The notes under the pieces: generated by a model
What the model was told of the DNA's origin: nothing
Seen by the model: only the letters and a program-made list of their open reading frames with translations
The model's database searches: none
Part shown: positions 12,435 to 29,558 of the stretch, piece by piece
Position numbering within the stretch: the stretch's first letter is position 1
Layout of the letters: every line of letters starts with the position of its first letter
Assembly: GCA_000002445.1 (NCBI GenBank)
Contig: CP000071.1
Coordinates: 2,417,191 to 2,481,190, forward strand
Direction of reading: 5' to 3'
Source: Trypanosoma brucei
Lineage: Eukaryota
DNA: 64,000 bases
Translations under genes and position numbers: made by a program

Positions 12435-12833
12435 ATGTACTTCGAAGAGGAAGAGAATAATGATGACTACAATAAGGCTGAAGGTGATGAGTCACCACGC
12501 AGTCGAGCATCTTCAAACGTGTCAGACATGCCGATGCCTCCTCTTCCGCCCCCAACACCACCAGCCGATGTATACGGCTTAGCTACAGAGGAGATTTACA
12601 GCATCATCAAAGAATTACGGCGGCAGATTGATGACCCAACAACCCACCATGACATCAAGGCCATGCTGAAGAAGGAACCTTCCATTCTTTTGGCCGTCAC
12701 TCGGGTCCTGCATGAGTCCGGACTCCTACGACGTGGTGTTGTGAATGCACATGGACAAGTGGAGGAGCAGATTGTGCCCCTTCCTGAAGCCCCAGCCCCG
12801 CCGTTGCCAACGGGGTATAGCAGTTGGGTATAG
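12435..12833 (+). CDS. Small hypothetical protein (132 aa) with Pro-rich motifs (PPLPPPTPP, PEAPAPPLP).
   Basis: ATG start at 12435. The codon usage looks like that of the neighbouring genes. It is short, so confidence is low. Confidence 0.3.
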   Translation: MYFEEEENNDDYNKAEGDESPRSRASSNVSDMPMPPLPPPTPPADVYGLATEEIYSIIKELRRQIDDPTTHHDIKAMLKKEPSILLAVTRVLHESGLLRRGVVNAHGQVEEQIVPLPEAPAPPLPTGYSSWV

Positions 12834-13940
12834 GTGAATGTCCAAAGCTGTTGTTGCACACAAGTTAATAACATCCGCTTCGCCGTTAACACTCCGTACA
12901 CATTTCAGGCTCGTCGTGGGAATCGGACATGTAGGTTTATACGCGTGCCTGACTGTTACGCATTGCACCAACCCCCAAATTTACGTTTGGTTGACTAGGA
13001 AGTTAGGGTTGAAACTAGTAGGAAAGTAATGGCAAACACGGCTCTGCTGGAGCGAGAATATGCGCTACCACCGATGGGCGAGCTGTGCTTAGCGACCGCA
13101 AGCAGCGGCGGCGCTGCAACCGTTACGCTTCTTGCTCATAGTGTCGGTGAAAGTCTGTAACCGCGCGCTAGTGCTTTTTTGACAGAGTTGTTTCCAGGTG
13201 TGCGTTACCCTAATTATTTTTTTACGTGCTTCCTGTAGCTTAAACACCTAGCTCTTCTTCCTGATAGTCGCTACGGAGATCATGCTCTTCATCGGATGAA
13301 ATCGTCGCTGTAGTCCACTGAAAGAGGCGGCACATCAAAAGGCAGTTGCAATGAACGGCTTATATGAAACACTCTCGTTAACGCAGGGAAAAAGTTGTTG
13401 CTATAAGAATGTTTGCTACTCTACTTACTCAAATACACGGTAAGATTAGCCCAAGTTGTCAATGCCAATATCTCAGTGTCACCACCTCTTTCACGGATAC
13501 AAAACTTTCACTTCTCATATTAAGGTTTCGCAGTCGATCTCACCGCCACCAGATGTCACCAATAAGAAAATACTCCCCTAGTTCTATACATGCGCCCTAA
13601 TTTCTGCCACACATTCTACTAATTTTGTTGTTTCGTTCCTTCTCTTATCCTTATTGCTTCAGGGTTTGTGTAGGTAAAGAAGTGTCATGACGTGATGTGT
13701 ATTGGCTGCGTGTATTTGAAGCCAGACGCTGGTGAAGACTGACAGCTTATAGTCGGTAAGAACTGTTAGTTTACTATACGTGTGGGTTAACAGTAACTAT
13801 CCCCTCCTTCTGTTGCCGTTTCATGGTTCGATGGCGTAGAGAAATTAACTGTGCGTTGTTATACTGACAGTGCTTCTATTGTTGCAGTGGGATTTTGTTT
13901 TCTTGCGATGTGAGCAGCATTACACTTTGCTGCTTTCCCT

Positions 13941-13999
13941 TTTTCCAATGCACATGTTCACCTTTCGTGTTTAATTGCTTGTTATCACAATTCCAATAG
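13941..13999 (+). promoter_or_regulatory. Putative spliced-leader acceptor region (polypyrimidine tract plus AG) for the A-type AAT copy. It is repeated upstream of the second A-type copy at about 22180-22238.
   Basis: A pyrimidine-rich run (ccctttttccaatgcacatgttcacctttcgtgtttaattgcttgttatcacaattccaatAG) ends in AG at 13998-13999, 37 nt upstream of the ATG at 14036. Confidence 0.3.
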
Positions 14000-14035
14000 G
14001 TTAGGTCACATTATTCCTTGCGTAGTGGAAGTGAA

Positions 14036-15418
14036 ATGCGAGCCACCAAAAAGCATCCGAATGATGGAAAGGGAGCCACTACCGATCCATTTGTTGACGG
14101 CAGCGATCCAATTCCTTCTGAGGTCGCTGCTTTCGATCCTTTGCAGCAGGAACATGTTGATGTGGTAAAGGAAGTGAAACCCTCGCTTTTCGCCGTACTT
14201 CTTGAGAAGTTTATTCCCCATGGTGGATTGTGGTCCTGTGCCCTGAACCTGGCCTCTGCTACATTGGGTGCTGGCATTTGCTCACTGCCTGCAGGTTTCA
14301 ATTTGAGTGGGATTGTTATGTCCTGCATTTACCTTGTTTGCGTTGCGGTTGGCACGGTGTACTCTCTTAATCTTCTTGCAAAGGTTGCAGTGAAGACGGG
14401 ATCGCGTAATTACGGAGAAGCTGCCAAAGCAGTGATGGGTCCACTTGCTGGTTACTACACGGCAGCGCTTATGATAGTGATGTGTTTTGGCGGCTCCGTT
14501 GCTTACATCATCATTATTGGTATCATTTTGAAGGCTGTGCTCAATCGTGATGGTGTTCCGGAATATTTGAAATCAGAAAGTGGTAATCGGCTAATGACAT
14601 CCATGGTGTGGTTGGTGATTATCTTGCCTATGTGCATTCCCAAGCAGGTTAATTCATTGCGCCACTTATCCTTTGTGGGTGTGATGTTTATTGTGTATTT
14701 TTCATGTGTTGTTATTGGCCATTCCATTAATAAGATCATTAATGAGGGTGTCGCTGATGGCATCGTGTACATGCGCACTGGAAATAGCGCTTTAGATGGC
14801 TTATCACTATTTCTCTTCTCATTTATCTGCCAGCCGAACGCATTTGAAATATTCCGTGAGATGAAACACCGGTCGCCGCAACGCTTCACAATATATGGTA
14901 CTGTCGGCATGTCAATGTGTGCTGTGCTTTACTTCCTGGTTGGTTTATTTGGTTATTTGGAGTTTGGAGGGGATGCCATTGACACAGTGCTGTCTCTATA
15001 TGATCCAGGTGAGAATGTTGCCGTTGCAATTGCGTACATTGGGGTTGCTGCCAAGGTTTGTGTTGCCTTTGCTTTGCACATCATACCAATGCGTGATGCA
15101 CTGTACCATTGTACGGGTTGGCATGTTGATACTGTACCGTACTGGAAGCATTCCCTCATTGTGACGTCTATTACTTTAGCGGCTCTACTAATGGGACTCT
15201 TCATTCCGAAAGCATCCACTGTTTTTGGTCTCGTTGGTGCTTTCTGTGGCGGTCATATCGGACTTGTGTTGCCTCCGTTGTTCTACATGTACTCAGGTGG
15301 CTTCACGAGGGAAAAAGTTGGTAATATTGATTTCTTTGGCACTTATCTCCTTCTTTTTGTTGGTGTTGTGGCTGTTGTATTTGGCACGGTTTCAACAATA
15401 TACAACACGGTGCCGTAG
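14036..15418 (+). CDS. Amino acid transporter (Aa_trans / kinetoplastid AAT family), A-type copy 1, 460 aa.
   Basis: The track start at 14018 is TTG and the first ATG is at 14036 (MRATKKHPNDGKG...). It has a hydrophilic N-terminus followed by about 11 hydrophobic segments. Conserved motifs: FIPHGGLWSCALNLASATLGAGICSLP and MYSGGFTREKVGN. It is near-identical to the copy at 22275. Confidence 0.85.
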   Translation: MRATKKHPNDGKGATTDPFVDGSDPIPSEVAAFDPLQQEHVDVVKEVKPSLFAVLLEKFIPHGGLWSCALNLASATLGAGICSLPAGFNLSGIVMSCIYLVCVAVGTVYSLNLLAKVAVKTGSRNYGEAAKAVMGPLAGYYTAALMIVMCFGGSVAYIIIIGIILKAVLNRDGVPEYLKSESGNRLMTSMVWLVIILPMCIPKQVNSLRHLSFVGVMFIVYFSCVVIGHSINKIINEGVADGIVYMRTGNSALDGLSLFLFSFICQPNAFEIFREMKHRSPQRFTIYGTVGMSMCAVLYFLVGLFGYLEFGGDAIDTVLSLYDPGENVAVAIAYIGVAAKVCVAFALHIIPMRDALYHCTGWHVDTVPYWKHSLIVTSITLAALLMGLFIPKASTVFGLVGAFCGGHIGLVLPPLFYMYSGGFTREKVGNIDFFGTYLLLFVGVVAVVFGTVSTIYNTVP

Positions 15419-16175
15419 TATGATGATGATTTCTACGCGGGTATGTTCTTGGTGCACACATACTTTATTTTTTATCCATAGGTATTGCTTGTGTATATCC
15501 ACATGCGCAAATATATATTTATATATTTGTACCGTGTAATATTTAATGGGTTGTGATTTCTTTCATTTTCTTTGCAGTAGCAATATTTCTATGGATCTTC
15601 ATCTTTCGGTTGCTCCCACATCTTGTCAGTGATTTATCACTATTATTACATTCTTTTGTGAAAATTATATATGTCGTTTCTTTATGATAACTGAATCCAG
15701 TTATTCATTTGTCGTACTCCCTTTTGTTTCCATTTTCCCCAAAAGGAGAGAGCACACACAACGGTTGGTGTCCCTTTCCACACTTGTTGTTATTGTTATC
15801 ATTATTATCGGGCTAAACTTAGCATTATTCCTCCCCTAGTGTCACTGCTGCTGTCAACTGGGTTATTGTTGTATCTCTTCTCTTTTGTCAGTCTTAGTGA
15901 TTCAACTGTTGGAGGAAAAGATCAGGGGCAAGACGTTGTGGTAACGTGTAACGAGATCGGATATCTGTGTTTGAGTTACTGGTTCCGTTTTTTGTTTGCA
16001 GTACACATCTCTTTGTTTGTCGACTTCCTATTGACTTCCAGCACTTTGTATAGAGTTTGCTACAGATGTATTTATTATCTTCTTTCTGGTATGTCTTTCA
16101 AAATCTCTTCGTTTTCACTTGGATGTTATATTACTATCTTGAAGCGTAAGGTTCGTATCATAATACGCTACCAAT

Positions 16176-17561
16176 ATGACGAATCAATCCAGCGGGGGCA
16201 ATGACAGGGGCCGTCGTGACACGGATCCTTTTGCTCACGCTGGTGATGTAAAATTATCTTCTGACGCTATTGCACTTGATGTAACTCAGAAAGGCCAGGA
16301 TGATGTGGTAAAGGAAGTGAAACCCTCGCTTTTCGCCGTACTTCTTGAGAAGTTTATTCCCCATGGTGGATTGTGGTCCTGTGCCCTGAACCTGGCCTCT
16401 GCTACATTGGGTGCTGGCATTTGCTCACTTCCGACTGGTTTCAATTTGAGTGGGATTGTTATGTCCTGCATTTACCTTGTTTGCGTTGCGGTTGGCACGG
16501 TGTACTCTCTTAATCTTCTTGCAAAGGTTGCAGTGAAGACGGGATCGCGTAATTACGGAGAAGCTGCGCGGATGGTGATGGGTCCACTTACTGGTTACTA
16601 CGCGGCAGCGCTTATGATAGCGATGTGCTTTGGAGGTAACGTTGCTTACATCATCATTATTGGTATCATTTTGAAGGCTGTGCTCAATCGTGATAGTGTT
16701 CCGGAATATTTGAAATCAGAAAGTGGTAATCGGCTAATGACATTCATGGTGTGGTTGGTGATTATCTTGCCTATGTGCATTCCCAAGCGGGTTAATTCAT
16801 TGCGCCACTTATCCTTTGTGGGTGTGATCGCTATTGCTTATTTCGCATTTTTCATTGTTGGCCATTCCATTAATAAGATCATTAATGAGGGTGTCGCTGA
16901 TGACATCGTGTACATGCGCACTGGAAATAGCGCTTTAGATGGCTTATCACTATTTCTCTTCTCATTTATCTGCCAGTCGAACGCATTTGAAATATTCCGT
17001 GAGATGAAACACCGGTCGCCGCAACGCTTCACAATATATGGTATTGTGGGTGTTGTGATGTGTGCTGTGCTTTACTTCCTGGTTGGTTTATTTGGTTATT
17101 TGGAGTTTGGAGGGAAATCTGTTGACACAGTGCTGTCTCTATATGATCCAGGTGAGAATGTTGCCCTTGCAATTGCGTATATTGGAATTGCAATTAAAAT
17201 AACAGTTGCTCATGCTCTACACTCTATTCCCATACGTGACGGTCTGTACCATTGTGTGGGTTGGCATGTTGATACTGTACCGTATTGGAAGCATGTTGTT
17301 GTGGTTGTAACTATTAACTTTACCTCACTGATTATTGGACTCTTCATTCCGAAAGCATCCACTGTTTTTGGTCTCGTTGGTGCTTTCTGTGGTGGTCATA
17401 TCGGACTTGTGTTGCCTCCGTTGTTCTACATGTACTCAGGTGGCTTCACGAGGGAAAAAGTTGGTAATATTGATTTCTTTGGCACTTATCTCCTTCTTTT
17501 TGTTGGTGTTGTGGCTGTTGTATTTGGCACGGTAACGACCATAGCCGGTGCACTGTCTTGA
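16176..17561 (+). CDS. Amino acid transporter (AAT family), B-type copy 1, 461 aa. This is the most diverged member of the array.
   Basis: ATG at 16176 (MTNQSSGGNDRGRRDTDP...). It has the same core as the A-type copies. It carries unique substitutions (VIAIAYFAFFIVGH; GKSVDT) and a unique C-terminus (TVTTIAGALS). Confidence 0.85.
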   Translation: MTNQSSGGNDRGRRDTDPFAHAGDVKLSSDAIALDVTQKGQDDVVKEVKPSLFAVLLEKFIPHGGLWSCALNLASATLGAGICSLPTGFNLSGIVMSCIYLVCVAVGTVYSLNLLAKVAVKTGSRNYGEAARMVMGPLTGYYAAALMIAMCFGGNVAYIIIIGIILKAVLNRDSVPEYLKSESGNRLMTFMVWLVIILPMCIPKRVNSLRHLSFVGVIAIAYFAFFIVGHSINKIINEGVADDIVYMRTGNSALDGLSLFLFSFICQSNAFEIFREMKHRSPQRFTIYGIVGVVMCAVLYFLVGLFGYLEFGGKSVDTVLSLYDPGENVALAIAYIGIAIKITVAHALHSIPIRDGLYHCVGWHVDTVPYWKHVVVVVTINFTSLIIGLFIPKASTVFGLVGAFCGGHIGLVLPPLFYMYSGGFTREKVGNIDFFGTYLLLFVGVVAVVFGTVTTIAGALS

Positions 17562-19789
17562 CACATTAGATTGCAAATGGAGCGTCTATGGATGTTTAAC
17601 CTTTATGAATCCTCCTGTAGGAATTTGTGTGTGTAAATGAGAATTTCTTGATTCAATAAATAATTCTTTTGATAGAACCAAAAAAAGTAGTAATTAATTA
17701 AATGTGGTAAATATCTTTTCTTATATTTTTGTTTTCATTCCTTTGGCTGCCTGCACGGCGTCGGTAATAATTGTAATTTGTACCGGTGCTGTTGGGACAG
17801 GTTGGTAGTTTGGCCTCCAGCTCAACCTGTAAGGGTGAGGGGGAATAGCCATGGTGATGGCATTAATTTTAACTTAAGGAGAAAGGGACCAACTGAGCAT
17901 AAAGGGCAACTTTAAGGAAATATATAAGGTTTAGGCAATATATACACGCAGGTATGTCTTGGGTGTAGAAACCCATGTGACTTATTTGCGTGACGTTTTT
18001 GCTTTCATTTTTCATTTTTTTTTTTTGGAAACCCTGCGTTACCAATGGTTTTGGATATGGGATTACATGGTATTATTTTGTACGAATTTCCTTATATAAA
18101 TACACTGTCTTCTCCAATATTTTACAGCTGCCTGCCAGAGGGTGTAAGTTCTAGAAAGAAAAAAATATGTTTTATGATATCAAAGATGCTGCCTCATACA
18201 CGATCGATTTTCAGAGAGAGAGGGTAATAAATGTCACGGCTTTTATGGAATCTGTTCGCCAAAAGGGACCAGCATCTTTTTCTTTCGACTTTGAACCAGT
18301 ACAGAACCCGAGGGATGCATACCACGTGGATGGAATTCTGACAATCGAGGATGAAAACCCTAATGGTGTTTACTTTGACCGCGAACAGAAAATGGATCTG
18401 GGATCGCTGAGGCAATTGATGGTAAGTTTTGTGTTGCCTAGAAACTCAGATTTCCTAAAGGCTTTTTGAAGAGGCGAGAGAAGCAATGAATTTGGGGGCT
18501 TTAATATTTCCCTACCTATACTCCACCACAAGGGAAAAAACCAACACAACGGAGAAAGTTACACTGGAGGACGGTAACAACTACTACTACTCCTACCCTT
18601 TGTCCGCCAATGAGTTACCCGACACGGACGGGAATAGTACGACCCTTACGCGCAGAAAAGTCGACAGCAGCTCAACGTATGAGAGGAGCCTTTCAAGAGA
18701 TCTGGGAAATGTCAAATGGAAATTAAAAACATGCAACAAGGTGGTCGTCGGTGAACGACGTCAAGGTTATTCTAGCTTCTACGCACGATTCGTATATTGT
18801 GACACTGGTTTCAGAAGAAAACAAAGTAGCAAAAAGGATGTGGACACACACAACTTGGGACAAACAGAAAGGGTCCATAATCCGAAGGTTCTATGCGTTT
18901 GCAGACAAACACGGACTACCGGCTGTCGAAACGACAATCCCCTTGTTTATTGTAAGTTTGCAACTGGCAAAGAGCACCACCATACAGTACACAAGGACAC
19001 TACTATCATTACTAGCCGCAGAGCATACACCAGCGCGAATGTATTTGTAGCCGGACTATGCAGAATGACAGGGGGAAATACCATAAAACAGGCTTGACCC
19101 ATGTTGCGTTGGGAGCTCGATCTCGTATGCGACACTTTAACACTGGAGCGGGATCGAGTAGCTTTAAGACTATCCTGAATCACAGCTAGCAGATGGGGAG
19201 AAATAGCAGAGCTACAACAAGAGAATTTTGTGCTCCATCCACAAGACAAAAAAGATGATGCCATAGTGGTAAACTGAGGAGCACTCCCAAAGACATTCAA
19301 AAGCGACACACACAGAACCGCGAAGTATGTGGTGATAAGCGGAGAAGATGCAGGAAGGATCCGAAGGGTAATCAGGGAAATGGAGGGTAGTGAAAAGCTC
19401 ATAGCCATTACAACGAAGGGAATGGAAACAATATTCTGCCCATTTGGGGTGACTGCACATTCAATAAAGAGAGGGGCTTTGGCACACCCAGAGTTGGCAT
19501 TAGTGGCGTAAAAACACACGCCCTCGATTCAATATTATTAACACAATTGGGAAAGCACACAAACCCTCAGGAGCTTCCTCGAAGCACGGTAGGACGCTAT
19601 CTGTGTCTATGGACCGCCACCATCAACAAGTCGGAGTTGCGCATGACTGTGCTGATGTAAAACCCCTGAAAAGGGGAAAAACAGATTTACCATGGGATAT
19701 GCCAGATAATTCCCGCCAAGCAGGGATAGCTTTAGTAACCAGGAGTAAAACATTTTCAAGGGCATAGCATCACACGACGTTCGCAAGGA

Positions 19790-21300
19790 CCACGGGTGGC
19801 GTCTAAGGAAGAAGAGATGACATTGCCTCTTCAGGAAGTAAATGTGGGCACATTGTATTTAGAACGGGTACGAAGACGAATGAAGGAGGAGACGCGGCAA
19901 CGGTTTGAGAAGGTATGGAACTTGAAGATTGCCACAGAAGGAAAATCGAAAGAAAGAGACAGGGAGTCACATTTGCGGATTGCGGAAAAAGACGCTGTAA
20001 TCATAAAAGAAGCAGGTGTTATAAGCCAACCTTCGGATCTTCCTACAAAGGGATGGGTCATACCTTTTTCAGTTGTGGAGTAGAAGTCGGCAGGAAAAAG
20101 ACGCCGATTTATTGCTTGGTCCAAGGTAAAAAATGCCAAAAATGATTACGAGGCCGAAGTCCCGTTGGGATATATATCCCAATATCTAAGTGCAGTTTAT
20201 GATGAATCCGCAGGGTTGTTTGATTTAAAGGCTTCTTTTTTTCCGGATGAACATGCCACAAAAGACATTTGAGTGTGTCTCCGCTGTTGCACAGAAAAGT
20301 GGGGAACTCGTAGAATTGAATCAACTCCAATTGGTTAATAAATGAAGTCATGAAATTGTAAAGACATCACGAGAGTTTTGGCAGGAGATCCTGGGGCAGC
20401 GAAACCACAATATGCGGCCACCAACGAATTGAGGGCGCACACATGGATCGACAACATCCGTATCAGTAGACCACACAAAACGGTCAAGGAATGGGGGGAC
20501 CACATTGCTAAAAATATGAAAGAGTGCGGAGTAAATGTTGATGAGCAAAGAAATGGCAACACGTTACGAATTTATCGGGTTTTTATTTGAGCATGACAAA
20601 CAGACGGTTTTGTTGAATGCAAAGACAATGCGGCGGATTCGAGAATCGGCTCCACTCGAGGTAGCGACCATACAACAGATGGAGAGAGTTGTATTCTGCA
20701 TGATATATGCGGCTGGGGTTAGGGGAGAACCACTTTTTTCTTACTATACTTTCTTTTAAATGATGCGTTGGCGTTTATCTCGCCTAAATATGGGTTTGGT
20801 AAACCCCTCCGATTTGGTTTTTCTGCCAAAAAGTGTATTGAAGCTGGAGAAGCAGTGGATGAGCGAGTTGTTGAAAAATGTGCCAGTGGTTCCACCACAG
20901 GCTCAGCCCACTACGGCCACGCTGGTGACAGATGCCTCCGTGCAGGGATGGGGAGGGATGTCATTTAAAGGTACAGGAGAGATTATAATAGCAGGAGGCT
21001 CCTGGGAAACGGCACCTCATATGATATCATAAGGAGAAGTGCGAGCGATTCAATTCGCATTGTTAGCGATTCGGGGGCGTTTCGATGGGCCATTGCACAT
21101 ATGTGTGGATAACACTGCTGTAATGCATATTATGAGAAAAGGCAACACGCATTCAAGCGCCCTAGTGCGATAGGCATCTGCAAAAAACAGGATATTACGA
21201 CAAGAACGGATAAGTGCCATATGGAGCTACGTACATTCCGGGATAAATCCGGCCGATGGGGCGTCTCGAGGGTTACTTGCCATGGGGTAGGACTTAGCGA
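19790..21300 (+). mobile_element. Degenerate retrotransposon remnant (RT/RNase H-like; ingi/DIRE-like or VIPER-like). Boundaries are uncertain.
   Basis: A chain of short ORFs interrupted by frame shifts and stops (19796-20083, 20378-20590, 20535-20759, 20760-21032) ends in a clear RNase H signature. It sits in a block (17562-21822) that is absent from the other array units. Confidence 0.5.
20760..21290 (+). pseudogene. RNase H domain remnant of a retroelement pol, disrupted by two in-frame stops.
   Basis: One frame reads ...LVTDASVQGWGGM..GGSWETAPHMIS*GEVRAIQFALLAIRGRFDGPLHICVDNTAVMHIMRKGNTHSSALVR*ASAKNRILRQERISAIWSYVHSGINPADGASRGLLAMG*. This matches the RNase H motifs (TDAS/GxG; E..A.L.A; DN..V; H.G...AD.LA). 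The stops are TAA at 21030-21032 and TAG at 21171-21173. Confidence 0.6.
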
Positions 21301-22274
21301 AGGAAAGCGCGGGAGGCGGGATGAGAACGCTTTCAGCTCTTCCACATAGTTAGTAAATTATCGTTTAAGATCATAGTTTGTGTAGGATGATGAGGAACGC
21401 TTACTGTTTCTTCAGCATGATAGTTATTTCCTATATATATATTTCTATGAAGTAAAGGGAAGGTGAACACAAAGCTATTCGGTTTTCAGTTGAAAAAATA
21501 AATGTATTGTATTAAGGTTCTTTTCGGATACTGTGATGACGTATGTTTTTCCCTCCTTGTGCTAAATTTCTTTTTCGCTGGTATTCCTCTTTCCATAGAT
21601 TCGTGGCTTCCTACCGTTTGGAACGATTACGGACCCCTACACACAATAAGTAAATTTCTTATATATTTCCTTTATATATTTCCTTTATATATATTCTTTA
21701 TATATTTGTTTTTGATTTCTTTGGAGTTTTTAAGTCTATTTCTCGTTTGTTTTTTTGTATTCCTGTCTCGCATTTGCCATGTTGTCATTATGTCTGTAAC
21801 CGAGATTGTCGTCGAGTGATGCCTATACATGCGCCCTAATTTCTGCCACACATTCTACTAATTTTGTTGTTTCGTTCCTTCTCTTATCCTTATTGCTTCA
21901 GGGTTTGTGTAGGTAAAGAAGTGCCATGACGTGATGTGTATTGGCTGCGTGTATTTGAAGCCAGACGCTGGTGAAGACTGACAGCTTATAGTCGGTAAGA
22001 ACTGTTAGTTTACTATACGTGTGGGTTAACAGTAACCATCCCCTCCTTCTGTTGCCGTTTCATGGTTCGATGGCGTAGAGAAATTAACTGTGCGTTGTTA
22101 TACTGACAGTGCTTCTATTGTTGCAGTGGGATTTTGTTTTCTTGCGATGTGAGCAGCATTACACTTTGCTGCTTTCCCTTTTTCCAATGCACATGTTCAC
22201 CTTTCGTGTTTAATTGCTTGTTATCACAATTCCAATAGGTTAGGTCACATTATTCCTTGCGTAGTGGAAGTGAG

Positions 22275-23657
22275 ATGCGAGCCACCAAAAAGCATCCGAA
22301 TGATGGAAAGGGAGCCACTACCGATCCATTTGTTGACGGCAGCGATCCAATTCCTTCTGAGGTCGCTGCTTTCGATCCTTCGCAGCAGGAGCATGTTGAT
22401 GTGGTAAAGGAAGTGAAACCCTCGCTTTTCACCGTACTTCTTGAGAAGTTTATTCCCCATGGTGGATTGTGGTCCTGTGCCCTGAACCTGGCCTCTGCTA
22501 CATTGGGTGCTGGCATTTGCTCACTGCCTGCAGGTTTCAATTTGAGTGGGATTGTTATGTCCTGCATTTACCTTGTTTGCGTTGCGGTTGGCACGGTGTA
22601 CTCTCTTAATCTTCTTGCAAAGGTTGCAGTGAAGACGGGATCGCGTAATTACGGAGAAGCTGCCAAAGCAGTGATGGGTCCACTTGCTGGTTACTACACG
22701 GCAGCGCTTATGATAGTGATGTGCTTTGGCGGCTCCGTTGCTTACATCATCATTATTGGTATCATTTTGAAGGCTGTGCTCAATCGTGATGGTGTTCCGG
22801 AATATTTGAAATCAGAGAGTGGTAATCGGCTAATGACATCCATGGTGTGGTTGGTGATTATCTTGCCTATGTGCATTCCCAAGCAGGTTAATTCATTGCG
22901 CCACTTATCCTTTGTGGGTGTGATGTTTATTGTGTATTTTTCATGTGTTGTTATTGGCCATTCCATTAATAAGATCATTAATGAGGGTGTCGCTGATGGC
23001 ATCGTGTACATGCGCACTGGAAATAGCGCTTTAGATGGCTTATCACTATTTCTCTTCTCATTTATCTGCCAGCCGAACGCATTTGAAATATTCCGTGAGA
23101 TGAAACACCGGTCGCCGCAACGCTTCACAATATATGGTACTGTCGGCATGTCAATGTGTGCTGTGCTTTACTTCCTGGTTGGTTTATTTGGTTATTTGGA
23201 GTTTGGAGGGGATGCCATTGACACAGTGCTGTCTCTATATGATCCAGGTGAGAATGTTGCCGTTGCAATTGCGTACATTGGGGTTGCTGCCAAGGTTTGT
23301 GTTGCCTTTGCTTTGCACATCATACCAATGCGTGATGCGCTGTACCATTGTACGGGTTGGCATGTTGATACTGTACCGTACTGGAAGCATTCCCTTATTG
23401 TGACGTCTATTACTTTAGCGGCTCTACTAATGGGACTCTTCATTCCGAAAGCATCCACTGTTTTTGGTCTCGTTGGTGCTTTCTGTGGTGGTCATATCGG
23501 ACTTGTGTTGCCTCCGTTGTTCTACATGTACTCAGGTGGCTTCACGAGGGAAAAAGTTGGTAATATTGATTTCTTTGGCACTTATCTCCTTCTTTTTGTT
23601 GGTGTTGTGGCTGTTGTATTTGGCACGGTTTCAACAATATACAACACGGTGCCGTAG
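22275..23657 (+). CDS. Amino acid transporter (AAT family), A-type copy 2, 460 aa.
   Basis: First ATG at 22275 (the track TTG is at 22257). It is near-identical to 14036-15418 apart from a few substitutions (L->S in DPSQQ; A->T in LFTV). Confidence 0.85.
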   Translation: MRATKKHPNDGKGATTDPFVDGSDPIPSEVAAFDPSQQEHVDVVKEVKPSLFTVLLEKFIPHGGLWSCALNLASATLGAGICSLPAGFNLSGIVMSCIYLVCVAVGTVYSLNLLAKVAVKTGSRNYGEAAKAVMGPLAGYYTAALMIVMCFGGSVAYIIIIGIILKAVLNRDGVPEYLKSESGNRLMTSMVWLVIILPMCIPKQVNSLRHLSFVGVMFIVYFSCVVIGHSINKIINEGVADGIVYMRTGNSALDGLSLFLFSFICQPNAFEIFREMKHRSPQRFTIYGTVGMSMCAVLYFLVGLFGYLEFGGDAIDTVLSLYDPGENVAVAIAYIGVAAKVCVAFALHIIPMRDALYHCTGWHVDTVPYWKHSLIVTSITLAALLMGLFIPKASTVFGLVGAFCGGHIGLVLPPLFYMYSGGFTREKVGNIDFFGTYLLLFVGVVAVVFGTVSTIYNTVP

Positions 23658-24414
23658 TATGATGATGATTTCTACGCGAGTATGTTCTTGGTGCACACAT
23701 ACTTTATTTTTTATCCATAGGTATTGCTTGTGTATATCCACATGCGCAAATATATATTTATATATTTGTACCGTGTAATATTTAATGGGTTGTGATTTCT
23801 TTCATTTTCTTTGCAGTAGCAATATTTCTATGGATCTTCATCTTTCGGTTGCTCCCACATCTTGTCAGTGATTTATCACTATTATTACATTCTTTTGTGA
23901 AAATTATATATGTCGTTTCTTTATGATAACTGAATCCAGTTATTCATTTGTCGTACTCCCTTTTGTTTCCATTTTCCCCAAAAGGAGAGAGCACACACAA
24001 CGGTTGGCGTCCCTTTCCACACTTGTTGTTATTGTTATCATTATTATCGGGGTAAACTTAGCATTATTCCTCCCCTAGTGTCACTGCTGCTGTCAACTGG
24101 GTTATTGTTGTATCTCTTCTCTTTTGTCAGTCTTAGTGATTCAACTGTTGGAGGAAAAGATCAGGGGCAAGACGTTGTGGTAACGTGTAACGAGATCGGA
24201 TATCTGTGTTTGAGTTACTGGTTCCGTTTTTTGTTTGCAGTACACATCTCTTTGTCTGTCGACTTCCTATTGACTTCCAGCACTTTGTATAGAGTTTGCT
24301 ACAGATGTATTTATTATCTTCTTTCTGGTATGTCTTTCAAAATCTCTTCGTTTTCACTTGGATGTTATATTACTATCTTGAAGCGTAAGGTTCGTATCAT
24401 AATACGCTACCAAT

Positions 24415-25800
24415 ATGACGAATCAATCCAGCGGGGGCAATGACAGGGGCCGTCGTGACACGGATCCTTTTGCTCACGCTGGTGATGTAAAATTATCTTC
24501 TGACGCTATTGCACTTGATGTAACTCAGAAAGGCCAGGATGATGTGGTAAAGGAAGTGAAACCCTCGCTTTTCACCGTACTTCTTGAGAAGTTTATTCCC
24601 CATGGTGGATTGTGGTCCTGTGCCCTGAACCTGGCCTCTGCTACATTGGGTGCTGGCATTTGCTCACTTCCGACTGGTTTCAATTTGAGTGGGATTGTTA
24701 TGTCCTGCATTTACCTTGTTTGCGTTGCGGTTGGCACGGTGTACTCTCTTAATCTTCTTGCAAAGGTTGCAGTGAAGACGGGATCGCGTAATTACGGAGA
24801 AGCTGCGCGGATGGTGATGGGTCCACTTACTGGTTACTACGCGGCAGCGCTTATGATAGCGATGTGCTTTGGAGGTAACGTTGCTTACATCATCATTATT
24901 GGTATCATTTTGAAGGCTGTGCTCAATCGTGATGGTGTTCCGGAATATTTGAAATCAGAAAGTGGTAATCGGCTAATGACATCCATGGTGTGGTTGGTGA
25001 TTATCTTGCCTATGTGCATTCCCAAGCAGGTTAATTCATTGCGCCACTTATCCTTTGTGGGTGTGATGTTTATTGTGTATTTTTCATGTGTTGTTATTGG
25101 CCATTCCATTAATAAGATCATTAATGAGGGTGTCGCTGATGGCATCGTGTACATGCGCACTGGAAATAGCGCTTTAGATGGCTTATCACTATTTCTCTTC
25201 TCATTTATCTGCCAGTCGAACGCATTTGAAATATTCCGTGAGATGAAACACCGGTCGCCGCAACGCTTCACAATATATGGTACTGTCGGCATGTCAATAT
25301 GTGCTGTGCTTTACTTCCTGGTTGGTTTATTTGGTTATTTGGAGTTTGGAGGGGATGCCATTGACACAGTGCTGTCTCTATATGATCCAGGTGAGAATGT
25401 TGCCCTTGCAATTGCGTACATTGGGGTTGCAATTAAAATAACAGTTGCTCATGCTCTACACGCTATTCCCATACGTGACGGTCTGTACCATTGTGTGGGT
25501 TGGCATGTTGATACTGTACCGTATTGGAAGCATGTTGTTGTGGTTGTAACTATTAACTTTACCTCACTGATTATTGGACTCTTCATTCCGAAAGCATCCA
25601 CTGTTTTTGGTCTCGTTGGTGCTTTCTGTGGTGGTCATATCGGACTTGTGTTGCCTCCGTTGTTCTACATGTACTCAGGTGGCTTCACGAGGGAAAAAGT
25701 TGGTAATATTGATTTCTTTGGCGCTTATCTCCTTCTTTTTGTTGGTGTTGTGGCTGTTGTATTTGGCACGGTTTCAACAATATACAACACGGTGCCGTAG
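24415..25800 (+). CDS. Amino acid transporter (AAT family), mosaic B/A/B/A copy, 461 aa.
   Basis: ATG at 24415. The N-terminus is B-type (to about 24885). The middle is A-type (MFIVYFSCVVIGH, TVGMSICAVLY, GGDAIDT; about 24930-25360). Then it is B-type again (VAIKITVAHALHAIPIRDGLYHCVGW...VVVVVTINFTSLIIG; about 25390-25580). The C-terminus and downstream sequence are A-type (TVSTIYNTVP). Confidence 0.85.
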   Translation: MTNQSSGGNDRGRRDTDPFAHAGDVKLSSDAIALDVTQKGQDDVVKEVKPSLFTVLLEKFIPHGGLWSCALNLASATLGAGICSLPTGFNLSGIVMSCIYLVCVAVGTVYSLNLLAKVAVKTGSRNYGEAARMVMGPLTGYYAAALMIAMCFGGNVAYIIIIGIILKAVLNRDGVPEYLKSESGNRLMTSMVWLVIILPMCIPKQVNSLRHLSFVGVMFIVYFSCVVIGHSINKIINEGVADGIVYMRTGNSALDGLSLFLFSFICQSNAFEIFREMKHRSPQRFTIYGTVGMSICAVLYFLVGLFGYLEFGGDAIDTVLSLYDPGENVALAIAYIGVAIKITVAHALHAIPIRDGLYHCVGWHVDTVPYWKHVVVVVTINFTSLIIGLFIPKASTVFGLVGAFCGGHIGLVLPPLFYMYSGGFTREKVGNIDFFGAYLLLFVGVVAVVFGTVSTIYNTVP

Positions 25801-26550
25801 TATGATGATGATTTCTACGCGGGTATGTTCTTGGTGTACACATACTTTATTTCTAGGTATTGCTTGTGTATATCCACATGCGCAAATATTTATTTATATA
25901 TTTGTACCGTGTAATATTTAATGGGCTGTGATTTCTTTCATTTTCTTTGCAGTAGCAATATTTCTATGGATCTTCATCTTTCAGTTGCTCCCACATCTTG
26001 TCAGTGATTTATCACTATTATTACATTCTTTTGTGAAAATTATATATGTCGTTTCTTTATGATAACTGAATCCAGTTATTCCTTTGTCGTACTCCCTTTT
26101 GTTTCCATTTTCCCCAAAAGGAGAGAGCACACACAACGGTTGGCGTCCCTTTCCACACTTGTTGTTATTGTTATCATTATTATCGGGGTAAACTTAGCAT
26201 TATTCCTCCCCTAGTGTCACTGCTGCTGTCAACTGGGTTATTGTTGTATCTCTTCTCTTTTGTCAGTCTTAGTGATTCAACTGTTGGAGGAAAAGATCAG
26301 GGGCAAGACGTTGTGGTAACGTGTAACGAGATCGGATATCTGTGTTTGAGTTACTGGTTCCGTTTTTTGTTTGCAGTACACATCTCTTTGTTTGTCGACT
26401 TCCTATTGACTTCCAGCACTTTGTATAGAGTTTGCTGCAGATGTATTTATTATCTTCTTTCTGGTATGTCTTTCAAAATCTCTTCGTTTTCACTTGGATG
26501 TTATATTACTATCTTGAAGCGTAAGGTTCGTATCATAATACGCTACCAAT

Positions 26551-27933
26551 ATGACGAATCAATCCAGCGGGGGCAATGACAGGGGCCGTCGTGACACGGA
26601 TCCTTTTGCTCACGCTGGTGATGTAAAATTATCTTCTGACGCTATTGCACTTGATGTAACTCAGAAAGGCCAGGATGATGTGGTAAAGGAAGTGAAACCC
26701 TCGCTTTTCACCGTACTTCTTGAGAAGTTTATTCCCCATGGTGGATTGTGGTCCTGTGCCCTGAACCTGGCCTCTGCTACATTGGGTGCTGGCATTTGCT
26801 CACTTCCGACTGGTTTCAATTTGAGTGGGATTGTTATGTCCTGCATTTACCTTGTTTGCGTTGCGGTTGGCACGGTGTACTCTCTTAATCTTCTTGCAAA
26901 GGTTGCAGTGAAGACGGGATCGCGTAATTACGGAGAAGCTGCGCGGATGGTGATGGGTCCACTTGCTGGCTACTACGCGGCAGCGCTTATGATAGCGATG
27001 TGCTTTGGAGGTAACGTTGCTTACATCATCATTATTGGTATCATTTTGAGAGCTCTATTTAGTCGTGATGGTGTTCCGGAATATTTGAAATCAGAGAGTG
27101 GTAATCGGCTAATGACATCCATGGTGTGGTTGGTGATTATCTTGCCTATGTGCATTCCCAAGCAGGTTAATTCATTGCGCCACTTATCCTTTGTGGGTGT
27201 GATGTTTATTGTGTATTTTTCATGTGTTGTTATTGGCCATTCCATTAATAAGATCATTAATGAGGGTGTCGCTGATGGCATCGTGTACATGCGCACTGGA
27301 AATAGCGCTTTAGATGGCTTATCACTATTTCTCTTCTCATTTATCTGCCAGTCGAACGCATTTGAAATATTCCGTGAGATGAAACACCGGTCGCCGCAAC
27401 GCTTCACAATATATGGTACTGTCGGCATGTCAATGTGTGCTGTGCTTTACTTCCTGGTTGGTTTATTTGGTTATTTGGAGTTTGGAGGGGATGCCATTGA
27501 CACAGTGCTGTCTCTATATGATCCAGGTGAGAATGTTGCCGTTGCAATTGCGTACATTGGGGTTGCTGCCAAGGTTTGTGTTGCCTTTGCTTTGCACATC
27601 ATACCAATGCGTGATGCGCTGTACCATTGTACGGGTTGGCATGTTGATACTGTACCTTACTGGAAGCATTCCCTTATTGTGACGTCTATTACTTTAGCGG
27701 CTCTACTAGTGGGACTCTTCATTCCGAAAGCATCCACTGTTTTTGGTCTCGTTGGTGCTTTCTGTGGTGGTCATATCGGACTTGTGTTGCCTCCGTTGTT
27801 CTACATGTACTCAGGTGGCTTCACGAGGGAAAAAGTTGGTAATATTGATTTCTTTGGTACTTATCTCCTTCTTTTTGTTGGTGTTGTGGCTGTTGTACTT
27901 GGTACTGGATCGGCAGTATATTATGCTGTGTAG
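26551..27933 (+). CDS. Amino acid transporter (AAT family), mosaic B/A copy with a unique C-terminus, 460 aa.
   Basis: ATG at 26551. The N-terminal third is B-type. The rest is A-type from about 27070. It has a unique cluster at 27047-27062 (RALFS instead of KAVLN) and a unique terminus (VVLGTGSAVYYAV). Confidence 0.8.
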   Translation: MTNQSSGGNDRGRRDTDPFAHAGDVKLSSDAIALDVTQKGQDDVVKEVKPSLFTVLLEKFIPHGGLWSCALNLASATLGAGICSLPTGFNLSGIVMSCIYLVCVAVGTVYSLNLLAKVAVKTGSRNYGEAARMVMGPLAGYYAAALMIAMCFGGNVAYIIIIGIILRALFSRDGVPEYLKSESGNRLMTSMVWLVIILPMCIPKQVNSLRHLSFVGVMFIVYFSCVVIGHSINKIINEGVADGIVYMRTGNSALDGLSLFLFSFICQSNAFEIFREMKHRSPQRFTIYGTVGMSMCAVLYFLVGLFGYLEFGGDAIDTVLSLYDPGENVAVAIAYIGVAAKVCVAFALHIIPMRDALYHCTGWHVDTVPYWKHSLIVTSITLAALLVGLFIPKASTVFGLVGAFCGGHIGLVLPPLFYMYSGGFTREKVGNIDFFGTYLLLFVGVVAVVLGTGSAVYYAV

Positions 27934-28398
27934 TTGTTTTTTATGTTAATCGTTGAATATTGTGGGAAGGCACTAGTTTTTTTTTCCTGGATGTTGTGGG
28001 GACACTGTTTTTTATGAGGCCAAGTAATGTTTTTCTGTTTTTTAATATTTGTTTAAAAATTTTTTCTTTGTGGTTTTTATTTTTAATTTATTTTGTTGTT
28101 GCTGATTAATTGTTTAGTGTACGCCGCTTCGTGTTGTATCCTTATTTTGCTGTACTGTTAAGTGTAGTAGCTTGCTTTTGTTGTTACGGATGAATCGGGG
28201 TTGTATCGTCGCTTTGCGGGTAACCTCCGATGATTTTTTCTTCTTCCTTCTTTGCCCCAGCTGGATGCCGTACGCGACAATCTCGAAGGGAGTTTTCCTT
28301 TATTTAGAATATAAGATATTTCCCCCCTATTATTGCTGTCGTGTCGTTGCGGGTTTTAGCTTTATCGAAGCTTAATAATGTTTGTTGCTAACGGTGGG

Positions 28399-28612
28399 GT
28401 TCTATACATGCGCCCTAATTTCTGCCACACATTCTACTAATTTTGTTGTTTCGTTCCTTCTCTTATCCTTATTGCTTCAGGGTTTGTGTAGGTAAAGAAG
28501 TGTCATGACGTGATGTGTATTGGCTGCGTGTATTTGAAGCCAGACGCTGGTGAAGACTGACAACTTATAGTCGGTGAGAACTGTTAGTTTACTATACGTG
28601 TGGGTTAACGGT
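28399..28612 (+). repeat. Partial third copy of the array upstream element U, with no gene downstream.
   Basis: About 210 nt (gttctatacatgcgccctaatttctgccacacattctac...tgggttaac) are near-identical to 13581-13800 and 21823-22040. Similarity ends abruptly at about 28612. Confidence 0.85.
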
Positions 28613-29558
28613 AATTAAAGGAATTTCTTAAAAGTTTGTGTGTTTTTTTTTGTAATGGCACGTGGCCGGAGGTTTGATGCGAAGTGGTGTCTGGGGTTGG
28701 GCGCAGCTGTTGCAAAATGAGTTACAAGTTATTTCCTTGTCTGTAATTGCGTTGATTTATACTGGAATGGTGACCTGATGCTTTTGTGAGTTTATGATGT
28801 GTTTGGATGTGCTGCGTCTGTTGTTGGATCGCTGAAGTGTAGTTCCTTTAGTGGCGACGTTGAGGTTTGATTTGTGGTTATGTGGTCTCTTTTGTAGCTT
28901 TGTGGTGTTTATGTAGTTTTTTTTCATCTTTTAGCTCTTATTTGCTTCGAGATTCAGTGGTCAGTGAAGCAGTAGTTTTCGAATTTATATCTGTAGCCTT
29001 TCTGTGTCGCTGGGGTTATTGTTTTTATAGTTGAGTTGGATGGTTGTTGTTGTTGCAAGTTTGTGATTAATTGAGTTACATGTTCTCTAGGATCTTATTG
29101 AGAGATATTTAAAGGTTAGTTCGTGCTCTTAATTTAGAGTAAATGAAGATTATGGGGATTGTCTAGTGGCTTTTCAGTGCGTCATACAGCATTTACATAA
29201 TCGGCCGTCTGCTTATCTTTTTTTTTTTTGTGTGTGTGTGGTAGAACCTAATGGAGATATTATTTTTTGCACATTGGTTTTGTGACTTTAGTTTTGGATC
29301 ATCATGCGAGGTATCCCTCCATATTTAGTTGTTTCTTATTATTGCCATTTGCTGTGTGCTTGTCCTCACATCGTTAAGCCATGGATTTGTTATCTGCCGT
29401 TGTCGATTGTGATTTTGTTGAAAGCAGGTGCGTTATTGCTTCCAATCCATTTCTCTTTTTTTCCCTCATCCGTTTCAATGACACACACGTAAGGGATACA
29501 TATTAGTCCCGTTTGTCTTACTTTTGTTCCTCCCTTCTCACCTTTGCAGCTCACTTTT

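What the first reader, a model, noticed from the sequence alone, without database searches (positions are those of the whole stretch)
17562..21822. 4.3 kb non-repeat block with a degenerate retroelement splits the transporter array; the upstream B copy is the most diverged
Units 1 and 2 of the array are separated by sequence found nowhere else in the array. This block contains a frame-shifted chain of pol-like ORFs ending in an RNase H remnant, then an AT-rich tail (21400-21820). The B-type gene immediately upstream (16176-17561) has many private substitutions compared with the downstream B-type segments. That is what one would expect if the insertion reduced homogenising gene conversion with the rest of the array. 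Alternatively, the retroelement block may be the ancient unit boundary across which the duplication occurred.
Basis: partly seen in the sequence, partly recalled or inferred. Interest (0 to 1): 0.6.

Follow-up and report, generated by a model that had tools for sequence, protein, structure and literature searches.

The report
Dead VIPER retrotransposon inside transporter array
The 4.3 kb block that splits this Trypanosoma brucei amino-acid-transporter gene array is about 0.9 kb of unique spacer holding a decayed copy of the known VIPER retrotransposon, and it does not shield the neighbouring gene from homogenisation, so the finding is real but ordinary.

Summary
The window is T. brucei brucei TREU927 chromosome 8. 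By inference the array is the AAT9 locus (Tb927.8.8220-8260).

**Observation confirmed.**
- 17534-21822 occurs nowhere else in the window.
- It holds a frame-shifted gag / tyrosine-recombinase / RT / RNase H chain.
- The upstream gene B1 has the most private substitutions (39, against 0-20 in the others).

**Identity.** The retroelement is a degenerate VIPER, a DIRS-like tyrosine-recombinase retrotransposon, at 18016-~21400.
- It lacks about 0.93 kb of gag.
- It sits in about 0.9 kb of unique intergenic DNA.
- It is not an ingi, RIME, DIRE or SLACS element.
- The orthologous T. b. gambiense copy is already listed as a degenerate VIPER in Ribeiro et al. 2019.

- The 3,950-bp units on either side of the block are colinear and 98.7% identical, and 99.5% over the first 3.1 kb.
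- In gambiense the gene next to the block is homogenised except for the last 28 bp, which are anchored to the unique flank.
- B1's private changes are dense short patches.

**Age and stability.** The block is shared by TREU927 and DAL972. It is absent from a gap-free nine-gene T. equiperdum array whose flanks nearly match the gambiense haplotype. This points to loss by unequal crossover. T. vivax has a single gene and no VIPER.

Low interest; already known in kind.

The parts
13584..17533 (+). Array unit 1: upstream region U (13584-14032), A-type transporter gene A1 (14033-15418), 757-bp spacer, and the body of B-type gene B1
   Evidence: Colinear with 21823-25772: 3,950 bp each, no indel, 51 differences. 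Pfam Aa_trans E=4e-47 for B1.
16176..17561 (+). B1 transporter gene (exact match to XP_847646; inferred to be Tb927.8.8230, AAT9.2). Dense private patches lie at 16835-16863 and 17050-17063.
17534..17561 (+). Private 3' end of B1 (C-terminus ...TIAGALS*). Homology with all other array copies stops at 17533. The tail is shared only with the gambiense gene that abuts the same block.
17562..18015 (+). Unique non-coding left flank, presumably the B1 3'UTR and intergenic DNA. Not part of VIPER.
   Evidence: No similarity to the other spacers, to U, or to the chr6 VIPER flank. 98% identical to gambiense.
18016..21397 (+). Degenerate VIPER retrotransposon remnant. Weak similarity continues to 21463.
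   Evidence: Limits come from a paralogous copy of about 4.2 kb on T. b. gambiense chr6 (L007 6515-10742; 80-90% nt). 70-74% nt identity to a T. congolense copy over 18289-21343.
18155..18466 (+). Remnant of the gag-like ORF N-terminus. About 0.93 kb of gag, including the CCHC-box part, is deleted just downstream at about 18485.
   Evidence: 37% identity over 62 aa, E=1e-8, to the T. theileri 415-aa gag-like ORF that has a CCHC box. The gap is seen against L007 6993-7924 and L001 5184-6181.
18700..19657 (+). Tyrosine-recombinase ORF remnant, spread over three frames with in-frame stops. The motifs SRWGE, HSIKRG and GRYL are still readable.
   Evidence: 62% identity and 99% coverage to intact T. 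theileri P0054, E=2e-106. A model of P0054 hits Cre, Xer and Tn1549 integrase.
19739..20590 (+). Reverse-transcriptase remnant
   Evidence: Pfam RVT_1 is sub-threshold on homologues P0002 and P0001.
20930..21250 (+). RNase H remnant. Homology to the RT/RH ORF ends at about 21302-21343.
   Evidence: Pfam RVT_3 scores 26.9 bits against a cutoff of 21.6 on P0004 residues 315-415, which map here.
21464..21822 (+). Unique T-rich right flank. It contains a 13-bp tandem repeat of 3.8 copies at 21659-21707.
   Evidence: Gambiense lacks one 13-bp unit.
21823..25772 (+). Array unit 2: second copy of U, A2, the spacer and the body of B2
28402..28617 (+). Third copy of the first ~216 bp of U, lying downstream of the last gene. 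With 13584-13799 it brackets the whole array as direct repeats.
   Evidence: 98% identity. Present at the same place in gambiense and T. equiperdum.

Best explanation
The block is an old intergenic junction inside the T. brucei AAT9 amino-acid-transporter array, and it carries a dead VIPER element.

Origin. VIPER is a retrotransposon that encodes gag-like, tyrosine-recombinase and RT/RNase H proteins. One copy integrated into the spacer between the second and third genes. It then decayed through frameshifts, stop codons and a 0.93 kb deletion in gag. It has no activity of its own now.

Effect on the array. The block is a passive island of unique sequence in an array that evolves in concert.
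- Gene conversion and unequal crossover act freely across it, which keeps the 3.95 kb units on either side nearly identical.
- Exchange tracts end where homology ends, at 17533. The upstream gene therefore keeps a private seven-residue C-terminus and a private 3' flank.
- B1's extra internal differences are short patch-wise events specific to TREU927. They are not a consequence of lying next to the block.
- The same intra-array recombination can delete the block, which is the likely origin of the block-free nine-gene array in T. equiperdum.

Shown: the element's identity, its limits and decay, its uniqueness, similarity across the block, and presence or absence in other genomes.

Inferred: integration by transposition, deletion in T. 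equiperdum, and the absence of any present function.
For: Identity:
- The RT/RH stretch matches VIPER-type proteins at E=1e-130 and the YR stretch at E=2e-106.
- The gag-YR-RT-RH order is colinear with T. theileri NBCO01000004.1. Ribeiro et al. 2019 analysed that copy as VIPER.
- The YR homologue folds like Cre and Xer.
- RNase H is supported by Pfam on a homologue.

Limits: a paralogous chr6 copy with unrelated flanks shares exactly 18016-21397.

Not a barrier to exchange:
- The flanking units are 98.7-99.5% identical.
- A1 and A2 are 99.35% identical.
- The gambiense block-adjacent gene Tbg_3 is 97.5% identical to its neighbour and has none of B1's internal private sites.
- Jackson 2007 (PMC1810246) had already reported gene conversion in AAT9.

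Age and loss:
- The block is at the same place in DAL972.
- It is absent from the gap-free T. equiperdum array.
- The immediate flanks of the T. equiperdum array differ from gambiense at only 5 of about 2,080 sites. TREU927 has 28 private differences over the same sites.
- T. vivax has one gene and no VIPER.
Against: - No terminal split direct repeats and no target-site duplication could be found, so integration by transposition is inferred, not shown.
- The non-VIPER flanks of the block match nothing else, so how the B1-tail / U-A2 junction arose is unresolved.
- The T. equiperdum assembly has indel errors in 4 of 9 genes. Absence of the block there could be an assembly or haplotype artefact.
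- The donor of B1's dense patches was not found.
- No transcript data were available, so a regulatory role for the private 3' flank or for the remnant cannot be excluded.
Confidence: 0.85

Rival explanations
1. One reading: the insertion isolates the upstream B copy from gene conversion with the rest of the array, so B1 drifts apart.
For: In TREU927, B1 has the most private sites (39). Its last 28 bp are indeed protected by the unique flank.
Against: - The units across the block are 98.7-99.5% identical, non-coding DNA included.
- The gambiense gene in the same position is homogenised.
- B1's private sites form dense patches (12 of 29 nt, 8 of 14 nt). Two of its five patches are shared with copies in gambiense or T. 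equiperdum that do not abut the block.
- At the patch at positions 660-688 the majority variant, not B1's, resembles the outgroups.
Confidence: 0.07
2. The block-free T. equiperdum arrangement is ancestral. The block, together with a second U and A-type gene, was gained in the lineage leading to TREU927 and DAL972.
For: The T. equiperdum array is a clean U-A-(B)x7-C array. T. vivax has no VIPER at this locus.
Against: - Both immediate flanks of the T. equiperdum array are nearly identical to the block-bearing gambiense haplotype, while block-bearing TREU927 is the outlier.
- A gain needs about 0.9 kb of unique DNA, a VIPER and a duplicated 5' boundary to arrive together. A loss needs one unequal crossover.
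Confidence: 0.12
3. The block is a non-LTR retroposon remnant (ingi/RIME, DIRE or SLACS).
For: These are the abundant retroelements of T. brucei (general knowledge). Pfam did not classify the fragments directly.
Against: - All significant protein hits are VIPER-type RT/RH and YR proteins.
- A tyrosine-recombinase ORF lies upstream of the RT.
- No endonuclease domain, no poly(A) tail at the 3' end and no target-site duplication were seen.
Confidence: 0.01
4. The remnant is exapted. It could be a VIPER-derived gene, as reported in Leishmania braziliensis, or a source of regulatory RNA or 3'UTR signals for the upstream transporter.
For: - The remnant is retained in two subspecies.
- B1 has a private 3' flank ending at a T-run at the VIPER 5' edge.
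- Stretches of the remnant are 98-100% identical to the chr6 copy.
Against: - Stops and frameshifts occur in every ORF.
- There is no Rfam or tRNA hit.
- The remnant is dispensable in T. equiperdum.
- The high identity to chr6 is patchy, which fits gene conversion and not constraint.
Confidence: 0.04

Closest known systems
VIPER (vestigial interposed retroelement): the VIPER-like subgroup of DIRS-order tyrosine-recombinase retrotransposons of kinetoplastids (Ribeiro et al. 2019, PMC6681497; earlier work by Vazquez and by Lorenzi is cited from that paper)
   Same: - The ORF order is gag-like, YR, RT/RNase H.
- The YR is 36-62% and the RT/RH 38-51% identical to VIPER proteins of T. cruzi, T. theileri, T. 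grayi and Angomonas.
- The copy is degenerate, as reported for all T. brucei copies (36 YR and 58 RT/RH tblastn hits in TREU927).
- The orthologous gambiense copy, Tbg972_08_2159853_2176197, is in that paper's table.
   Different: - This copy lacks about 0.93 kb of gag, including the CCHC-box region.
- It has no recognisable split direct repeats.
- At 3.4 kb it is shorter than the chr6 copy (about 4.2 kb). The full T. cruzi element is about 4.5 kb by my recollection, which I did not check here.
Concerted evolution and partial gene conversion in T. brucei amino-acid-transporter arrays (Jackson 2007, PMC1810246: AAT9Tb has five copies, the first and third cluster, and copy 5 is converted by copy 3)
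   Same: - The same array, by inference.
- The same clustering of A1 with A2.
- Mosaic patches are shared among copies.
   Different: That paper does not mention the retroelement or the spacer. This analysis adds that exchange spans the block, that exchange tracts stop at 17533, and that copy number (5, 6, 9) and presence of the block vary among T. brucei-group genomes.
VIPER remnant interrupting a tandem cathepsin (Peptidase_C1) array in T. congolense IL3000 (locus L001)
   Same: A degenerate VIPER of about 4.2 kb sits between members of a tandem gene array. It is 70% identical at the nucleotide level to the window copy.
   Different: There it is a clean insertion into a regular 1,881-bp repeat, and the spacing becomes 6,103-6,110 bp. 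Here the element lies in unique spacer and is followed by a duplicated array boundary.

Membership tests
VIPER-like (DIRS-order YR retrotransposon) | Three ORFs in the order gag-like, tyrosine recombinase, RT/RNase H | tested here: met
   Colinear tblastx with T. theileri VIPER L002 from 18220 to 21302. Gag N-terminus E=1e-8, YR E=2e-106, RT/RH E=1e-130. All are remnants.
VIPER-like (DIRS-order YR retrotransposon) | ORF2 is a tyrosine recombinase (fold plus the R...HxxR...Y catalytic residues) | tested here: met
   - Pfam and a PDB sequence-profile search found nothing.
- An AlphaFold model of the intact homologue P0054 (62% identical; core pLDDT 80-90, overall 58) gives Cre, Xer, XerH and Tn1549 integrase as all top Foldseek hits, E=2e-5, probability 1.0.
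- The window copy still reads SRWGE, HSIKRG and GRYL. Assigning these to the catalytic residues is my inference.
VIPER-like (DIRS-order YR retrotransposon) | Reverse transcriptase domain | tested here: inconclusive
   Homology to VIPER RT/RH proteins is strong. Pfam RVT_1 reaches only 17-26 bits on the homologues against a cutoff of 29.6, and nothing on the window fragments.
VIPER-like (DIRS-order YR retrotransposon) | RNase H domain C-terminal to the RT | tested here: met
   Pfam RVT_3 scores 26.9 bits, above the 21.6 cutoff, on P0004 residues 315-415. This region is 50% identical to window 20529-21302.
VIPER-like (DIRS-order YR retrotransposon) | Split direct repeats (A1 at the 5' end; B1-A2-B2 at the 3' end) | tested here: not met
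   Only low-complexity T-rich matches were found. PMC6681497 reports such repeats for copies in T. cruzi, C. fasciculata, B. saltans and, incompletely, T. theileri, and scores the T. brucei copies only as degenerate. This bears on completeness, not on homology.
VIPER-like (DIRS-order YR retrotransposon) | Intact ORFs (potentially autonomous copy) | tested here: not met
   At least four frameshifts, at least eight in-frame stops and a 0.93 kb gag deletion.
ingi/RIME, DIRE, SLACS (non-LTR retroposons of T. brucei) | Non-LTR-type RT with an endonuclease, a 3' poly(A) tail and target-site duplications (RIME-like ends for ingi) | tested here: not met
   - No protein hit to these families appears among 11 RT/RH and 52 YR hits.
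- No endonuclease domain.
- No A-run at 21340-21470.
- No flanking direct repeat.
- The consensus sequences themselves could not be fetched, so no direct alignment was made.
AAT9 locus of T. brucei (Tb927.8.8220-8260) | Five tandem AAAP-family genes on chr8 in which the first and third cluster, upstream of the AAT10 pair | tested here: met
   - Exact protein matches to TREU927 chr8 entries.
- Five Aa_trans genes, with A1/A2 99.4% identical.
- Two further Aa_trans genes lie 8-11 kb downstream.
- The description in PMC1810246 fits, as does the S28 peptide shared by 8230, 8250 and 8260.
- The mapping from gene ID to window gene is inferred, not looked up.

The most novel reading that the evidence does not exclude
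The scattered, long-dead VIPER remnants of T. brucei still exchange sequence between chromosomes by ectopic gene conversion. The chr8 copies of TREU927 and DAL972 differ by 13-26% in three patches but by only 0-3% elsewhere. In those patches one or the other matches the gambiense chr6 copy in unbroken runs of up to 23 informative sites. In addition, the remnant in AAT9 gives Tb927.8.8230 a private C-terminus and 3'UTR that could set its expression apart from its near-identical neighbours.
Probability: 0.35. Interest if true: 0.35.

Novelty: already known. Interest (0 to 1): 0.15.

Why it matters
Its main use is as a correction and an annotation. The block should be labelled a degenerate VIPER copy lying in unique spacer. 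It should not be read as a barrier to concerted evolution.

- The case shows that a 4.3 kb unique insert does not stop exchange between array units 8 kb apart.
- It shows that homogenisation tracts end exactly where homology ends. This is how one array member acquires a private C-terminus and 3' flank.
- The presence or absence of the block (TREU927 and DAL972 versus T. equiperdum) and the copy numbers (5, 6, 9) could serve as a structural marker for T. brucei-group haplotypes.
- None of this opens a new question.

Tried and rejected
- **Direct Pfam scan** of the window's ORF fragments found no retroelement domain. Homology had to come through intact relatives.
- **PDB profile and Pfam searches** with a three-sequence YR alignment gave only chance hits. 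A predicted structure and fold search replaced them.
- **Exact look-ups of the window's transporter proteins** in the contig index failed four times. Orthologous loci were reached through gambiense and T. equiperdum proteins instead.
- **Terminal repeats and target-site duplications.** The search found only T-rich low-complexity matches.
- **Smith-Waterman tests** of the block flanks against the other spacers, U, the region upstream of U and the chr6 flank were all within shuffle range. The only exceptions were a T-rich match between the block's two flanks (z=4.3, low complexity) and a short extension of the VIPER 3' end to 21463. So the idea that the flanks are a diverged copy of the terminal spacer, or that U is a SIRE-like VIPER end, found no support.
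- **Rfam and tRNA scans** of 13000-29500 were empty.
- **Donor of B1's private patches.** Nothing was found in the window.
- **Locus name.** I first took the locus for AAT5 (Tb927.8.4700-4750) from papers on that array. I corrected this to AAT9 once the gambiense coordinates, the clustering of the first and third copies, and the downstream AAT10 pair were considered. The copy numbers that PMC2854126 gives for Tb927.8.4740 therefore do not apply here.
- **A full-text search for 'TcC31.12'** found no paper.
Full report
**Where the window comes from**

Three of the five transporter ORFs match, residue for residue, 'amino acid transporter, putative' proteins of Trypanosoma brucei brucei TREU927 encoded on a 2,481,190-bp contig, chromosome 8. 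The local layout is:

| Coordinates | Feature |
|---|---|
| 13584-14032 | upstream region U |
| 14033-15418 | A-type gene A1 |
| 15419-16175 | 757-bp spacer |
| 16176-17561 | B-type gene B1 |
| 17534-21822 | the block |
| 21823-22271 | second U |
| 22272-23657 | A2 |
| 23658-24414 | spacer |
| 24415-25800 | B2 |
| 25801-26550 | spacer |
| 26551-27933 | C |
| 27906-28401 | terminal spacer ('c-tail'; starts inside C's coding end) |
| 28402-28617 | third copy of the first ~216 bp of U |

A CCDC39 gene lies upstream. A phosphodiesterase-like gene and two more Aa_trans genes lie downstream.

This fits the published description of the AAT9 locus (Tb927.8.8220-8260):
- It has five copies, and the first and third cluster apart from the others (PMC1810246).
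- A phosphopeptide at S28 is shared by 8230, 8250 and 8260, the three genes with the B-type N-terminus (PMC13524880).

The locus name is my inference. I first mistook the array for AAT5 and corrected this.

**Checking the observation**

BLASTN of 17400-22000 against the whole window finds nothing but self for 17534-21822.
- Homology with all other gene copies ends at 17533, 28 bp before B1's stop codon. B1 therefore ends ...TIAGALS, while A1, A2 and B2 end ...TIYNTVP and C ends ...GSAVYYAV.
- The right edge is exact. At 21823 the sequence of 13584 onward starts again at 99.4% identity.
- In an alignment of the five genes, B1 has 39 sites where it alone differs. A1, A2, B2 and C have 5, 0, 2 and 20.

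**What the block contains**

Pfam recognises nothing in the broken ORFs themselves. The evidence comes from homologues.
- *RT/RH.* A pseudo-protein stitched from 19739-21170 matches trypanosome proteins named 'TcC31.12' (T. grayi, E=1e-130, 48% identity, 99% coverage) and T. theileri proteins carrying RVT_1 or RNase H Pfam marks.
- *Colinearity.* The T. theileri locus of one hit (L002, NBCO01000004.1) has a 415-aa gag-like ORF with a CCHC box, then a broken second ORF, then an RT/RH ORF. The window is colinear with it from about 18220 to 21302.
- *Published status of the comparison copies.* That T. theileri copy, the gambiense chr6 copy used below and the gambiense chr8 copy orthologous to this block are all listed as VIPER copies in the supplement of Ribeiro et al. 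2019 (PMC6681497). A TREU927 chr8 entry near 2.43 Mb is probably this very copy.
- *Tyrosine recombinase.* The second ORF (18700-19657, three frames, several in-frame stops) is 62% identical over 99% of its length to an intact 319-aa T. theileri protein, E=2e-106.
  - Many of its relatives are misnamed 'trans-sialidase'.
  - Sequence searches against Pfam and the PDB gave nothing.
  - A predicted structure of the intact homologue has a confident core only. Against the PDB it returns Cre, Xer, XerH, Tn1549 and P2 integrases as all its top matches.
- *RNase H.* Pfam RVT_3 passes its cutoff on homologue P0004 at residues that map to about 20930-21250.

The element is therefore a VIPER, a DIRS-like tyrosine-recombinase retrotransposon. 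It is not a non-LTR element. No hit to ingi, DIRE or SLACS proteins appeared, there is no endonuclease domain, and there is no poly(A) tail.

**Limits and state of the element**

- A second copy on T. b. gambiense chromosome 6 (L007, about 4.2 kb, unrelated flanks) shares 18016-18491, 18479-19995 and 20093-21397 with the window at 80-90% nucleotide identity. It carries about 0.93 kb of gag that the window copy lacks. Weak similarity runs on to 21463.
- A T. congolense copy matches 18289-21343 at 70-74%.
- The VIPER remnant is therefore 18016-~21400.
- The remaining 482 bp on the left and about 360-425 bp on the right are unique non-VIPER DNA. These flanks resemble none of the other spacers, U, or the sequence upstream of U.
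- The 'AT-rich tail' (GC 0.33, 44% T) has the same composition as the ordinary spacers of this array.
- No split direct repeats or target-site duplications are detectable.
- No Rfam family or tRNA lies in or near the block.

**Does the block shield B1 from homogenisation?**

The evidence says no.
1. *Similarity across the block.* 13584-17533 and 21823-25772 are each 3,950 bp, have no indel, and differ at 51 sites. Only 16 of these fall in the first 3,092 bp (99.5% identity, non-coding DNA included), and 34 fall in 16584-17333. Orthologous single-copy flanks of TREU927 and DAL972 are 98.98% identical. The two units are thus at least as alike as the subspecies, although the arrangement itself is shared by both and so is older.
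2. *The gambiense counterpart.* T. b. gambiense DAL972 has the same block at the same place, in an array U-A-B-B-block-U-A-B-C. The gene abutting the block there is 97.5% identical to its upstream neighbour. It has none of B1's internal private sites and keeps only the seven private sites of the last 28 bp.
3. *Pattern of B1's private sites.* They are clustered: 12 of 29 nt at gene positions 660-688 and 8 of 14 nt at 875-888.
   - Compared with 18 gene copies from three genomes, only the patches at 526-688 and 875-888 are unique to TREU927 B1 (apart from the single site at 734, which is shared by every gambiense and T. equiperdum copy).
   - The patches at 946-952 and 1011-1018 occur in gambiense or T. 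equiperdum copies that are not next to the block.
   - At 660-688 the majority variant is the one closer to outgroup orthologues.

This is the mosaic pattern expected from patch-wise exchange. Jackson (2007) reported partial conversion for AAT9. Being next to the block matters only for the last 28 bp and the 3' flank, because exchange tracts cannot run past the end of homology.

**History**

- T. vivax has one transporter gene between CCDC39 and the next gene, and no VIPER. The array and the insertion therefore arose on the T. brucei side.
- The three C-terminal variants are all recognisable versions of the ancestral ...FGTV(S/T)TIY.TV... tail. The three kinds of 3' end are thus old paralogous variants, not fusion junctions.
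- An assembly named T. brucei equiperdum (GCA_003543875.1) has, over 34 kb without gaps, U-A-(B)x7-C: nine genes at 2.14 kb spacing, a single U and A-type gene, and no trace of the block.
- The immediate flanks of the T. equiperdum array are almost the gambiense haplotype:

| Region | TREU927-only | gambiense-only | T. equiperdum-only |
|---|---|---|---|
| upstream 12001-13583 | 14 | 1 | 2 |
| terminal spacer 27906-28401 | 14 | 0 | 2 |

- The block is present on both the gambiense haplotype and the more distant TREU927 haplotype. The simplest reading is that it is ancestral and was deleted in T. equiperdum by unequal crossover between genes on either side.
- Four of the nine T. equiperdum genes carry frameshifts that look like long-read errors, so an assembly artefact is not excluded.
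- How the junction 'B1 tail - unique spacer - U - A2' first arose remains unresolved. The ~216-bp U repeats that bracket the array suggest unequal exchange between them, but the expected homology of the spacers is absent.

**Side observation on the VIPER remnant**

TREU927 and DAL972 differ by only 0-3% over most of the block, but by 13-26% in 18534-18834, 19734-19834 and 20734-21334, all inside the VIPER part. In a three-way comparison with the gambiense chr6 copy, the sites where the two chr8 copies differ fall into alternating runs. In each run the chr6 copy agrees with one chr8 copy or the other, for up to 23 consecutive sites, and is 100% identical to gambiense chr8 over 18700-18799. This fits ectopic conversion among dispersed remnants. 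Mis-assembly of a repeat in DAL972 is the alternative.

**Verdict**

The causal interpretation is not supported, and the 'old boundary' alternative is partly supported. Degenerate VIPER copies in T. brucei, this copy's gambiense orthologue, and gene conversion in this array are all in the literature. The finding is already known in kind and of low interest.

Noticed in passing
window 13584-13799, 21823-22035, 28402-28617: A segment of about 216 bp, the start of the array's upstream region, occurs three times at 98-99% identity with the same sharp left edge: before A1, before A2, and after the last gene's spacer. The outer two bracket the whole array as direct repeats, also in gambiense and T. 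equiperdum. Its origin is unexplained.
   Followed up: partly
window 18534-18834, 19734-19834, 20734-21334 versus L003 and L007: Divergence between the TREU927 and DAL972 copies of the block is patchy: 13-26% in these stretches and 0-3% elsewhere. In these stretches one copy or the other matches the gambiense chr6 VIPER in runs of up to 23 informative sites. This suggests ectopic gene conversion among dead VIPER copies, or chimeric assembly.
   Followed up: partly
window 16835-16863 and 17050-17063 (B1): Two very dense private patches (12 of 29 nt and 8 of 14 nt) give conservative changes in predicted membrane segments. They are absent from 17 other copies in three genomes, and no donor was found in the window.
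   Followed up: partly
L004+L006 (T. brucei equiperdum GCA_003543875.1, CM010679.1 1464456-1498680): The orthologous array has nine genes at 2.14 kb spacing and no block. Four of the nine have premature stops, probably from uncorrected long-read indels. Copy number at this locus is 5 in TREU927, 6 in DAL972 and 9 here.
   Followed up: yes
L001 (T. congolense IL3000 CAEQ01001738.1) 4992-8841 and 11095-11287: A degenerate VIPER of about 4.2 kb cleanly interrupts a tandem cathepsin (Peptidase_C1) array with a 1,881-bp period, so the spacing becomes 6,103-6,110 bp. A second VIPER 5' end follows the next gene, so VIPER remnants sit inside tandem arrays in another species too.
   Followed up: partly
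proteins P0054-P0100: Most database relatives of the VIPER tyrosine-recombinase ORF in T. cruzi, T. theileri and T. grayi are named 'trans-sialidase' or 'SH3 domain protein'. This looks like a propagated mis-annotation, and none carries a Pfam domain.
   Followed up: no
window 21659-21707: A 13-bp tandem repeat (TTATATATTTCCT, 3.8 copies) lies in the T-rich right flank of the block. The gambiense orthologue has exactly one unit fewer.
   Followed up: no
window 28618-37000 versus gambiense and T. equiperdum: The local genealogy switches along the locus. Next to the array, T. equiperdum is nearly identical to gambiense and TREU927 is the outlier. From about 31.5 kb onward gambiense is the outlier (46 private sites, against 4 for TREU927). 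This is consistent with a recombination breakpoint just downstream of the array.
   Followed up: partly
window 18947-19519 (- strand): A 190-aa ORF runs antisense across the tyrosine-recombinase remnant and is longer than any sense ORF there. It was not examined and is probably chance.
   Followed up: no
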